Source: a virus
Taxonomy: Duplodnaviria; Heunggongvirae; Uroviricota; Caudoviricetes
Length of the DNA: 5,076 nucleotides
Strand: one strand, 5' to 3'
Virus record (IMG/VR): IMGVR_UViG_3300018478_000044
Part shown: positions 2,984-3,768 of the stretch, one piece after another
Numbering within the stretch: position 1 is the stretch's first letter
Layout: the number at the start of each line of letters is the position of its first letter
The notes under the pieces: generated by a model
The model's database searches: none
The model's input: only the letters and a program-made list of their open reading frames with translations
Told to the model about the DNA's origin: nothing
Translations under genes and position numbers: made by a program

Positions 2984-3184
2984 TTATTTTCCTGTCAGCA
3001 GTTCCGGTTTTATTTCCGCACGAATACAAAGTTCAGAAAAAAATTCAGGAGAACCAACAATCTCATTACTTTTCAGTCGGCATTGTGATTTCACTTTCCC
3101 TTTATCCAGGTAAACCAGTACGCGTCCGGTGAAATCATCTGGCACATTAAGCACTACGGGTACATGCACTTCATGATTATGCAT
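2984..3184 (-). CDS. Hypothetical 66-aa protein carrying one copy of the FTGR-type module
   Basis: ATG at 3184..3182 with SD GGAGGA 8 nt upstream. Start overlaps the stop of the upstream 77-aa ORF by 8 nt (ATGCATAA). Contains DFTGRVLVYLDKGKV...SPEFFSELCIRAEIKPEL, which is homologous to both repeats in the 122-aa ORF. Confidence 0.6.
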   Translation of the reverse strand: MHNHEVHVPVVLNVPDDFTGRVLVYLDKGKVKSQCRLKSNEIVGSPEFFSELCIRAEIKPELLTGK

Positions 3185-3410
3185 GGCTTACATCCTCCGT
3201 GAATTTTCTTCTGTAACGCGCCTCTGCCACATATTCCGCATAGTCCGACGCAATACTAAGAATCATTTCACCCTCTGACTTGTAGCCACTGGTATTGATA
3301 AGAAAATATGCAGCTTTCATCATGTCAGCAACGCTCAACAATGCGCCCGATGTATCTTCCGGTGCGCCATCAAATTCCCGTTTCAGGGAATTAAAACGAT
3401 CATCACGCAT
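3177..3410 (-). CDS. Hypothetical acidic 77-aa protein
   Basis: ATG at 3410..3408 preceded by AGGGGGG. Overlaps the stop of the upstream ORF by 8 nt (ATGCGTGA). Its own stop is embedded in the next start (ATGCATAA). No family recognised. Confidence 0.55.
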   Translation of the reverse strand: MRDDRFNSLKREFDGAPEDTSGALLSVADMMKAAYFLINTSGYKSEGEMILSIASDYAEYVAEARYRRKFTEDVSHA

Positions 3411-3768
3411 GTTTACCCCCCTGAATGACCTGATAACCGCAACTGGTCAGCAACTCGATAAATTCCGGCAGTGTGCCGAAACAGCAATCATCACGCAGCC
3501 GTTCGCAGGATACCTCGACGCCGTTTTCGTAGTGACTCACCATACGTCCGGTAAAATGCAGATCATCATCGTGATGGCTCGTTGACGGCTTAATCAGTCG
3601 CGCACGTTCCGCCAGTTCCAGCAATGCTTCAACGCTTCCGGCAATTGCACCATCCGGCAGGTGGTAATTACGCACTATGCGCCCGTTCTCCACATGGACC
3701 AGTAGCTGCCCGGTAAATTTCTCGTCAAACTGAATGCTGTTAAGGTCAGAAATTGACAGGTTATGCAT
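3403..3768 (-). CDS. Hypothetical 122-aa protein with an internally duplicated ~45-aa FTG(Q/R)-ENG module
   Basis: The ORF track starts this ORF at 3786 (MCRRCTM...). I place the start at the second ATG (3768..3766) because it is preceded by SD AGGAGGT with a 5-nt spacer and the longer version would have the SD inside codons 3-5. Two internal repeats: EKFTGQLLVHVENGRIV...AGSVEALLELAERARLIKP and LHFTGRMVSHYENGVEV...GTLPEFIELLTSCGYQV. Confidence 0.65.
   Translation of the reverse strand: MHNLSISDLNSIQFDEKFTGQLLVHVENGRIVRNYHLPDGAIAGSVEALLELAERARLIKPSTSHHDDDLHFTGRMVSHYENGVEVSCERLRDDCCFGTLPEFIELLTSCGYQVIQGGKHA

What the first reader, a model, noticed from the sequence alone, without database searches (positions are those of the whole stretch)
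2984..3768. A ~45-aa FTG(R/Q)-x-h-V-x-h-(E/D)-(N/K)-G module present three times across two ORFs
The 122-aa ORF carries two tandem copies (EKFTGQLLVHVENGRIV...SVEALLELAERARLIKP and LHFTGRMVSHYENGVEV...LPEFIELLTSCGYQV). The 66-aa ORF two genes downstream carries a third (DFTGRVLVYLDKGKV...SPEFFSELCIRAEIKPEL). Shared anchors are FTG, a hydrophobic strand, E/D-N/K-G, then a G-S/T...PEF/AL...L helix-like tail. This points to a small domain family expanded by duplication within the operon; the alternating hydrophobic pattern around the NG turn is compatible with a beta-hairpin, but the fold is unknown.
Basis: seen in the sequence. Interest (0 to 1): 0.6.

Follow-up and report, generated by a model that had tools for sequence, protein, structure and literature searches.

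The report
Three FsoA/Rem-type antirepressor modules in satellite
The repeated ~45-60-residue module is real, and it belongs to a family of small phage proteins (FsoA of Salmonella phage Fels-1, Rem of E. coli prophage Qin) shown to switch off prophage repressors; three diverged copies sit in the early operon of an E. coli phage satellite, where they plausibly wake up resident helper prophages.

Summary
The 121-aa protein (3403-3768, minus strand) holds two copies of the module and the 66-aa protein (2984-3184) holds one. Pairwise Smith-Waterman z-scores are 5-15 against 2000 shuffles.

AlphaFold2 gives each module a beta-hairpin centred on the N/K-G turn, followed by a helix (p66 model pLDDT 88.9). 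No solved structure matches.

The family is not unknown. Each module aligns directly to FsoA, the Fels-1 antirepressor that inactivates the Gifsy-2 repressor (z 11-12.6). A profile of the family hits FsoA at E 1e-27 and E. coli Rem, the antirepressor of DicA, at E 4e-11. Close homologues carry the recent Pfam family PF27490 'Rem', and PHROG 340 hits both proteins.

The modules are old paralogues, only 26-31% identical, each with closer relatives elsewhere, so this is not a recent duplication within the operon.

The window is a PICI-type satellite at tRNA-Thr. The operon runs Icd-like, p74, p121, p77, p66, DUF4222, primase. The modules occupy the slot that the helper-derepression gene epsilon holds in P4.

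Best reading (inferred): they are antirepressors that bind short, non-cleavable CI-like prophage repressors. This is a new member of a known kind. The satellite context and the tandem architecture have not been described, as far as I could find.

The parts
3403..3768 (-). p121, a 121-aa protein with two tandem FsoA/Rem-type modules. Module 1 is about aa 1-62 (nt 3583-3768). Module 2 is about aa 63-121 (nt 3406-3582). The stop codon is 3403-3405.
   Evidence: ORF and AGGAGG ribosome-binding site. PHROG 340 in two stretches. Family profile gives two domains, E 1.8e-16 and 3.7e-13. AF2 shows two hairpin+helix units, pLDDT 65.7. Annotated as a CDS by PGAP in strain S40.
2984..3184 (-). p66, a 66-aa single-module FsoA/Rem-type protein.
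   Evidence: PHROG 340, E 1.7e-20. Smith-Waterman vs FsoA z 12.6. AF2 pLDDT 88.9: strands 21-27 and 30-37, helix 46-55, short helix 60-64.
3177..3410 (-). p77, a 77-aa gene between the two module genes. Its start overlaps the stop of p121, and it is fused in frame to p121 in many genomes.
   Evidence: ORF. PHROG 24341 and 2512, function unknown. 196-aa p121+p77 fusion proteins P0002, P0005, P0012 and P0014.
3761..3985 (-). p74, a 74-aa gene just upstream of p121. By eye, related segments appear fused to modules in distant relatives; this was not tested by alignment.
   Evidence: PHROG 5146. By eye only, P0149, P0158 and P0194 carry a p74-like segment plus a module. Its homologues are all 'hypothetical'.
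3416..3421 (-). G6 run (C6 on the + strand) at the p121 stop / p77 start junction. One G fewer would fuse the two proteins.
   Evidence: Sequence. The fusion junction ...QGVNMRDD in P0002 compared with ...QGGKHA* here. The DNA-level cause is inferred.
3978..4181 (-). Icd-like protein, first gene of the operon. PGAP calls a longer 134-aa version.
   Evidence: NCBIfam NF033153, E 3.9e-20. PHROG 6196. Annotation.
2689..2979 (-). DUF4222 protein, directly upstream of the primase. Present between the module gene and the primase in six of the eight satellite-type loci.
   Evidence: Pfam PF13973, E 3.9e-19. Synteny in L005, L015, L016, L017 and L018.
887..2692 (-). D5_N/DUF5906/Pox_D5 primase-helicase of the P4 alpha type, last gene of the operon.
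   Evidence: Pfam and NCBIfam hits.
518..875 (.). Direct and inverted 'TGTCTACC' iterons downstream of the primase, a probable replication origin.
   Evidence: the repeat finder families D1, D2 and I1-I6. The origin function is inferred by analogy with P4 and PICI origins.

Best explanation
p121 and p66 are members of the FsoA/GfoA/Rem family of small phage antirepressors. Each module is a beta-hairpin plus helix of about 55-65 residues.

In the characterised members this unit binds a short, non-cleavable CI-like repressor (GtgR and DicA for the two members I could align, FsoA and Rem; GfoR for GfoA, whose full sequence I could not test) and takes it off its operator.

Here the genes lie in the single early operon of a PICI-type satellite integrated at tRNA-Thr. 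They occupy the position that the helper-derepression gene epsilon/Ash holds in P4.

The most likely mechanism is this. When the satellite's early operon is switched on, the three diverged modules bind repressors of resident lambdoid or Gifsy-like prophages and derepress them. That supplies, or synchronises, helper functions for the satellite. Three different modules would widen the range of repressors covered. The tandem p121 could also engage both subunits of one repressor dimer.

Shown: homology to FsoA and Rem, the predicted fold, and the operon position. Inferred: that these copies bind repressors, which repressors they bind, and the benefit to the satellite.
For: Homology:
- Each module aligns directly to FsoA with z 11.3, 11.0 and 12.6; 0 of 2000 shuffles reach the observed score.
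- The family profile hits Fels-1 STM0898.2n at E 1.4e-27 over its whole length, and Rem at E 3.9e-11.
- hhalign of the profile against Rem gives probability 96%, E 4.8e-9.
- STM0898.2n is FsoA: the primers le154 and le162 of Lemire et al. encode its N- and C-termini.
- The precomputed Pfam hit PF27490 'Rem' is on record for P0022 and P0023, which are 79-85% identical to p121, and for the Bro-N fusion P0141.

Function of characterised members:
- FsoA derepresses Gifsy-2 by acting on GtgR. It lies in the Fels-1 left operon, is not LexA-controlled, and is not needed for Fels-1 induction. GfoR-GfoA elutes as an A2B2 complex (PMC3121763).
- Rem raises dicBp expression 165-fold against DicA (PMC10448788).

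Context:
- The window is an int/AlpA/AntA/primase/PerC island at tRNA-Thr next to proA. This is the same site and type as the experimentally verified PICI EcCIMP1.
- In 8 of 12 sampled relatives the module gene lies in an int-AlpA/HTH...module-primase satellite operon, with DUF4222 between module and primase in six of them. In 2 sampled relatives, and in Fels-1 (FsoA itself), it lies in a prophage early-left operon.
- P4 has epsilon in the same slot, and Ash/epsilon is a core helper-derepression component of P4-like satellites (PMC10085698).
- Modules occur fused to the antirepressor-type N-terminal domains Bro-N and AntA.
Against: - Identity to FsoA is only 22-35% and to Rem 14-25% on profile columns, so target specificity, and even target class, could differ.
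- GftA, another proven antirepressor, is barely detected by the profile (E 0.2), so the link is to the FsoA/Rem branch only.
- No repressor partner has been identified. No LexA box or other induction signal was found.
- Known Gram-negative PICIs are described as responding to helper induction through AlpA, not as inducing the helper.
- EcCIMP1 itself lacks the module, so the module is accessory, not core.
- Its near-constant position next to DUF4222 and the primase would also fit a replication role.
- The local Pfam copy lacks PF27490, so I could not score the window proteins against that model directly.
Confidence: 0.55

Rival explanations
1. The modules have the FsoA/Rem fold but a different target. 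They would be generic small protein-binding adaptors aimed at the satellite's own regulators (for example the divergently encoded YlcI/YnfO-type protein, or AlpA), at a host protein, or at an incoming phage's repressor, for example to force lytic growth or to interfere with the helper.
For: - Low identity to the characterised members.
- Rapid diversification and many recombinant forms.
- The operon starts with an Icd-like cell-division inhibitor, a host-directed function.
- Fusions to a by-eye p74-like segment and to p77, both of unknown function.
- Three other candidate antirepressors tested alongside Rem (YpjJ, YeeT, YkfH), picked by BLASTP from FsoA and of untested family membership, did not act on DicA. 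This shows that specificity is narrow.
Against: Both experimentally studied relatives that I could align (FsoA, Rem) act on CI-like repressors. The domain partners Bro-N and AntA are typical of antirepressors.
Confidence: 0.27
2. The modules are replication accessory factors that work with the DUF4222 protein and the primase-helicase at the iteron origin.
For: - The module gene lies just upstream of the primase in all 8 satellite-type loci, with DUF4222 between them in 6.
- One relative is fused to a DnaG-type zinc ribbon (P0152).
Against: - In prophages the same family lies in early-left operons, away from the replication genes.
- FsoA and Rem have demonstrated antirepressor activity.
- EcCIMP1, a mobilisable PICI of the same type, lacks the module.
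- Satellites have one early operon, so adjacency carries little weight.
Confidence: 0.1
3. The repeat is a chance resemblance of short hairpin motifs, of the kind seen in MORN/YwqK-like repeat proteins, and says nothing about function.
For: The profile also picks up long repetitive proteins through the hairpin part alone, roughly profile positions 14-51 (P0159, P0193 and others).
Against: - Alignments between the modules, and to FsoA, extend through the helix and tail with z 5-15.
- About 70 small proteins align over the full length.
- The AF2 model built on that alignment is confident, pLDDT 88.9.
Confidence: 0.02

Closest known systems
FsoA, antirepressor of Salmonella phage Fels-1 (STM0898.2n; Lemire, Figueroa-Bossi and Bossi 2011, PMC3121763)
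   Same: - Same domain over its full length: FTGR, hairpin with an N-G turn, F-E-hA--AG helix.
- A small acidic protein.
- Encoded among overlapping small genes in an early operon, outside the immunity region, with no LexA box.
   Different: - FsoA is a single module in a complete temperate phage. Here there are three modules, two in one polypeptide, in a satellite with no structural genes in the window.
- Identity is 22-35%.
- The target repressor here is unknown.
Rem of E. coli K-12 cryptic prophage Qin, which gives its name to Pfam PF27490; antirepressor of DicA (Ragunathan et al. 2023, PMC10448788)
   Same: Residues 38-80 of Rem align with the module: hhalign probability 96%, family profile E 3.9e-11. 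Close homologues of p121 carry the PF27490 hit.
   Different: - Rem lacks the FTG motif and has an extra N-terminal hairpin.
- Identity to the window modules is 14-25%.
- Rem lies between hokD and ydfU of Qin, upstream of the Q antiterminator homologue ydfT, not next to a primase.
P4 epsilon / Ash, the helper-derepression protein of P4-like satellites
   Same: - Same position: a small gene in the early operon between the cI/Icd-like ORF and the primase.
- Same proposed logic: a satellite protein that inactivates the helper's repressor.
   Different: - No detectable sequence similarity (BLASTP E > 0.3; the family profile does not list epsilon even at E <= 100).
- Epsilon targets the P2 C repressor.
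- This is a functional and positional analogue only.
GfoA / GftA / GfhA, the LexA-controlled Gifsy antirepressors
   Same: - Small antirepressors that bind non-cleavable repressors as A2B2 complexes; said by their authors to share residues with FsoA.
- The C-terminus of GfoA, read from a primer (RRLGYRVTPPSDI), fits the family's C-terminal tail.
   Different: - GftA scores only E 0.2 against the profile.
- These genes follow a dinI homologue behind a LexA box. No LexA box is present here.

Membership tests
FsoA/Rem small antirepressor family (Pfam PF27490 'Rem'; PHROG 340) | Significant sequence match to the family profile or to characterised members | tested here: met
   - PHROG 340: E 4e-30 (two stretches in p121) and E 1.7e-20 (p66).
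- Smith-Waterman vs FsoA: z 11-12.6.
- Own profile vs FsoA E 1.4e-27, vs Rem E 3.9e-11.
- hhalign vs Rem: probability 96%.
- PF27490 is on record for the 79-85% identical P0022 and P0023.
- The PF27490 model itself is not in the local Pfam copy.
FsoA/Rem small antirepressor family (Pfam PF27490 'Rem'; PHROG 340) | Small stand-alone protein of about 65-90 aa with one module | tested here: met
   p66 meets this (66 aa). p121 departs from it by carrying two modules. Two-module proteins recur in Hafnia, Cedecea and Serratia.
FsoA/Rem small antirepressor family (Pfam PF27490 'Rem'; PHROG 340) | Conserved core: the G of FTG, the G of the hairpin turn, L after strand 2, E in the helix | tested here: met
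   G20, G29, L37 and E51 are invariant in the 20-sequence module alignment. G20 and G29 are at least 90% conserved in the 64-sequence alignment.
FsoA/Rem small antirepressor family (Pfam PF27490 'Rem'; PHROG 340) | Binds a short non-cleavable CI-like repressor and relieves repression | not testable with these tools
   Known for FsoA, GfoA and Rem from experiments. Nothing here identifies a partner.
FsoA/Rem small antirepressor family (Pfam PF27490 'Rem'; PHROG 340) | Encoded outside the immunity region, in an early or SOS-controlled operon of a temperate element | tested here: met
   The genes lie in the early operon of an int/AlpA/primase island. There is no LexA box, as for FsoA.
P4 epsilon / Ash helper-derepression proteins | Sequence similarity to P4 epsilon | tested here: not met
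   BLASTP E 0.33-1.2. The family profile does not list epsilon even at E <= 100.
P4 epsilon / Ash helper-derepression proteins | Position between the cI/Icd-like ORF and the primase in a satellite early operon | tested here: met
   P4 map compared with the window ORF order.
MORN-variant / YwqK-type hairpin repeat proteins | Many tandem about 23-residue hairpins with no intervening helix | tested here: not met
   Only the hairpin part of the profile, roughly positions 14-51, matches those proteins. The window modules carry a helix and tail and are about 60 residues long.
PICI-type phage satellite (context of the finding) | Integrase, AlpA-type regulator, primase, no virion genes, integration at a specific att site | tested here: met
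   Strain S40 locus: tRNA-Thr, int, an excisionase/AlpA-type HTH regulator (PHROG 2790 and 66, not a direct AlpA match), AntA/AntB, primase, ProQ/FinO, PerC and a weak TerS-like hit. The verified PICI EcCIMP1 uses the same site. Helper-dependent mobilisation of this island was not tested.

The most novel reading that the evidence does not exclude
PICI-type satellites of Enterobacterales carry their own helper-derepression device, an array of diverged FsoA/Rem modules in the operon slot that epsilon/Ash holds in P4. Some modules are joined in tandem, or fused to partner proteins through a slippery G-run.

The array would let one satellite switch on several heteroimmune resident prophages that have non-cleavable repressors. 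Frequent module-to-module recombination would re-assort target specificities.

This would mean that Gram-negative PICIs can induce their helpers as well as respond to them.
Probability: 0.35. Interest if true: 0.6.

Novelty: new member of a known kind. Interest (0 to 1): 0.38.

Why it matters
These genes are annotated 'hypothetical protein' wherever I looked. At least 157 of 5426 complete E. coli genomes carry this block, and even FsoA's own phage record calls it hypothetical.

Linking them to FsoA and Rem gives a concrete, testable function. If the satellite copies do inactivate prophage repressors, PICI-type satellites would share with P4 the ability to derepress helpers. The current picture of Gram-negative PICIs is of elements that wait for the helper and respond through AlpA. 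It would also add satellites to the 'prophage crosstalk' network that coordinates induction in polylysogens.

The tandem and fused forms offer natural constructs for working out how one small hairpin-helix domain recognises different repressors. No structure exists for the family.

Tried and rejected
- Local Pfam-A and NCBIfam scans of p121 and p66 gave nothing useful. A Pfam scan of 64 family members gave only noise.
- A profile search of PDB sequences gave only chance hits, best E 0.029.
- The afdb50 library was unavailable.
- tblastn of p121 against 50,697 phage records found no match at E <= 0.01. FsoA as query found 15 records, all 'hypothetical'.
- P4 epsilon, ORF151 and ORF106 show no similarity to p74, p121, p77 or p66.
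- p74 and p77 are not detectably related to each other. p74 homologues are all unnamed.
- A LexA-box search found one 1-mismatch hit inside a coding region, which is what chance gives. The sigma-70 promoter scan was at or below chance.
- EcCIMP1 was checked for the module and has none.
- I considered a recent tandem duplication. I rejected it because of the low inter-module identity and the closer relatives elsewhere.

Full report
**1. The observation**

All genes of interest lie on the minus strand and overlap each other by a few bases. The order is:
- Icd-like protein, 3978-4181
- p74, 3761-3985
- p121, 3403-3768
- p77, 3177-3410
- p66, 2984-3184
- DUF4222 protein, 2689-2979
- a 601-aa D5_N/DUF5906/Pox_D5 primase, 887-2692
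- an iteron field, about 518-875

The mechanical ORF list starts it six codons earlier. The three quoted segments are present as written.

Smith-Waterman scores against 2000 shuffles of the partner give z 9.3 for module 1 vs module 2, z 14.8 for module 1 vs p66, and z 5.1 for module 2 vs p66. The number of shuffles that reach the observed score is 0, 0 and 2. PHROG 340 matches p121 in two stretches and p66 in one.

**2. The family and its fold**

Word-indexed searches with p121 and p66 returned only close relatives, named where a source names them as Escherichia or Salmonella, all unnamed.

An exhaustive HMMER search with a 20-sequence module alignment, against 1.84 billion cluster representatives, found 114 proteins at E <= 0.001. 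Most are 56-99 residues long. They share this consensus: a hydrophobic segment, pdFTGRvlvyvenGkv, L..dE, F.ElA..AGy.V.pp.

I set aside 16 long repetitive proteins when extracting modules. Those I read (P0159, P0185, P0190, P0192, P0193, P0199) are MORN/YwqK-like hairpin repeats that match only the hairpin part of the profile. P0115 and P0130 are repetitive proteins of another kind. I do not count any of them as members.

Where sources name the organism, members come from Enterobacterales: Escherichia, Salmonella, Klebsiella, Enterobacter, Hafnia, Cedecea, Serratia and Yersinia. All are labelled 'hypothetical'.

AlphaFold2 on p66 with the 64-sequence alignment gives mean pLDDT 88.9. It predicts strands 21-27 and 30-37 joined at the K-G turn, a helix at 46-55 and a short helix at 60-64. 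p121, with a shallower alignment, gives two such units at pLDDT 65.7.

**3. What the family is**

Precomputed Pfam annotation in the protein collection lists PF27490 for two homologues that are 79-85% identical to p121. The context tool names that family 'Rem'. The local Pfam copy does not contain it.

E. coli K-12 Rem (b1561, prophage Qin) aligns to the module profile with hhalign probability 96%, E 4.8e-9, and with HMMER E 3.9e-11.

Ragunathan et al. (PMC10448788) showed that Rem relieves DicA repression of dicBp 165-fold. They found Rem by iterated BLAST from the Salmonella antirepressors GfoA and FsoA.

I then scanned six-frame ORFs of Fels-1, Gifsy-1 and Qin with the profile. The best hit is Fels-1 STM0898.2n, at E 1.4e-27 over the whole profile. 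Primers le154 and le162 in Table S1 of Lemire et al. (PMC3121763) encode MNSQQMM and EAGIRFEEISNVG. These are the two ends of that ORF, so it is FsoA.

Each window module aligns directly to FsoA with z 11.3, 11.0 and 12.6. That is as good as, or better than, most alignments of the modules to one another.

Lemire et al. showed several things about FsoA:
- It is not needed for Fels-1 induction.
- It inactivates the non-cleavable Gifsy-2 repressor GtgR.
- The related GfoR-GfoA pair behaves as an A2B2 complex.

GftA is only marginally detected by my profile (E 0.2). The secure link is therefore to the FsoA/Rem branch.

**4. Duplication history**

On profile columns the three modules are 26-31% identical to each other. 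Each has closer relatives elsewhere:
- Module 1 is 44-47% identical to the N-terminal modules of two-module proteins from Hafnia and Cedecea.
- Module 2 is 43% identical to the C-terminal module of the Cedecea protein, and to several single-module proteins.
- p66 is 46-52% identical to a separate group of single-module proteins.

The tandem architecture is therefore old and conserved across genera. p66 is a different lineage that sits in the same operon. This argues against a recent expansion within this operon.

The copies are still recombining, however. The collection holds in-frame hybrids that join module 1 to module 2 at or near FTG (P0047, P0034, P0036, P0041). It also holds a hybrid that joins the start of p121 to p66, which deletes p77 (P0065).

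**5. Context**

The same block in E. coli S40 lies in an island of about 14 kb next to tRNA-Thr and proA. The island carries an integrase, an excisionase/AlpA-type HTH regulator, an AntA/AntB protein, the operon described above, ProQ/FinO and PerC genes, a weak TerS-like protein and cargo genes.

This is the layout and integration site of EcCIMP1, a PICI shown to be mobilised by phage Kapi1 (PMC11773190). EcCIMP1 itself has no module; it has an ash pseudogene.

I sampled twelve relatives:
- Eight lie in int-AlpA/HTH...module-primase satellite operons, six of them with DUF4222 between the module gene and the primase.
- Two lie in early-left operons of prophages, as FsoA does in Fels-1.
- One is fused to Bro-N beside a lysis cassette.
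- One is Rem, in Qin.

P4 has epsilon, its helper-derepression protein, in the same operon slot. Ash/epsilon is a core component of P4-like satellites. Epsilon shows no sequence similarity to the modules.

**6. Mechanism proposed**

By homology, the modules bind short CI-like repressors that lack the S24 cleavage domain. Lemire et al. report such repressors in most E. coli genomes. dicA itself is found in 851 of the 5426 complete genomes at megablast sensitivity.

The modules are expressed from the satellite's early operon. They would derepress resident prophages and so provide or synchronise helper functions. Three diverged modules would broaden the range of targets. The two-module protein could reach both subunits of a repressor dimer, given the A2B2 stoichiometry reported for GfoR-GfoA.

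These steps are inferred. No partner was identified, no LexA box is present, and published Gram-negative PICIs are described as followers of helper induction.

The rival readings are a different binding target, including the satellite's own regulators or host proteins, and a replication accessory role. The second is suggested by the constant neighbourhood of DUF4222 and the primase, and by one fusion to a DnaG zinc ribbon.

**7. Verdict**

The repeat is real and the hairpin prediction holds. The family is already known in substance (FsoA 2011, Rem 2023, Pfam PF27490, PHROG 340), although its genes are annotated 'hypothetical' wherever I looked, including all listed hits in 157 complete E. coli genomes and FsoA's own record.

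I found no description of three things in the papers I could search: its recurrent presence in the primase operon of PICI-type satellites, the tandem form, and the natural fusions. I rate it a new member of a known kind, of moderate interest, with a testable and more interesting possibility attached.

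Noticed in passing
window 3416-3421 (C6 on the + strand) and proteins P0002, P0005, P0012, P0014: A G6 run sits at the p121 stop / p77 start overlap. Many genomes encode a 196-aa p121+p77 fusion whose junction (QGVNMRDD) is what one G fewer would give. Both forms are common (171 and 156 member sequences). This could be slippage-driven switching, or a 'Rosetta stone' sign that p121 and p77 work together.
   Followed up: partly
window 3177-3197, 3761-3781, 3978-3998: Three gene junctions share the same about 21-nt overlap cassette. 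On the coding strand it reads ...GGAGG..N..CATGCATAA: the upstream gene ends in H-A-stop and the next gene starts with M-H. This indicates translational coupling, and it may provide recombination points for swapping gene cassettes.
   Followed up: no
proteins P0047, P0034, P0036, P0041, P0065 (relatives of window 2984-3768): These are natural in-frame hybrids. Module 1 is joined to module 2 at or near the FTG motif. In P0065 the start of p121 is joined to p66, with loss of p77. The paralogous modules are recombining with each other in E. coli populations.
   Followed up: partly
window 4279-4290, 4301-4312, 4348-4359: Two copies of the palindrome TGTGCGCACA, and a degenerate third, lie in the divergent intergenic region between the Icd-like operon and the YlcI/YnfO-family gene. 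They are probably operators for an unidentified regulator.
   Followed up: no
window 4387-4584 and 4642-4839 (+ strand): Two adjacent 65-aa genes both end in AKEQE and share short DNA repeats near their starts and ends (families D8 and D10). The first is YlcI/YnfO family (DUF3950). Qin, the prophage that encodes Rem, also carries ynfO.
   Followed up: no
window 518-875: A dense field of direct and inverted TGTCTACC iterons in AT-rich DNA just downstream of the primase gene. It is probably the satellite's replication origin.
   Followed up: no
window 3978-5024 (- strand): The mechanical 348-aa ORF is an artefact of an open frame running antisense through the two + strand genes. The real gene is the Icd-like protein (67 aa from the ATG at 4181; PGAP aa). 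Its PHROG label 'transcriptional repressor' possibly derives from P4's cI ORF, to which it is only weakly similar (BLASTP E 0.26).
   Followed up: partly
P0152 (L002:412-816, L003:2421-2825); P0141 (L004:262-816); P0053: The module occurs fused to a DnaG-type zinc ribbon, to a Bro-N domain, and to an AntA domain. The C-terminus of Gifsy-1 STM2616, annotated 'similar to antirepressor', also matches the profile weakly (E 8e-4).
   Followed up: partly
P0149 (L005:1827-2549), P0158, P0194: By eye, distant relatives seem to carry a p74-like segment in the same polypeptide as one or two modules, which would suggest that p74 (window 3761-3985) is a functional partner of the modules. I did not align or score these segments against p74.
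   Followed up: no
L016:1-3302 next to L016:3565-9734: A satellite with a two-module protein lies directly beside the tail and Ogr end of a P2-like prophage. L005 carries tail-type genes (Dit-like, Pam3_gp18-like) downstream of its primase.
   Followed up: no
P0143, P0200: Two family members begin with the N-terminal residues of the DUF4222 protein (MxxKNSGLxASGQT...) and then continue into a module. This again points to cassette recombination within these operons.
   Followed up: no
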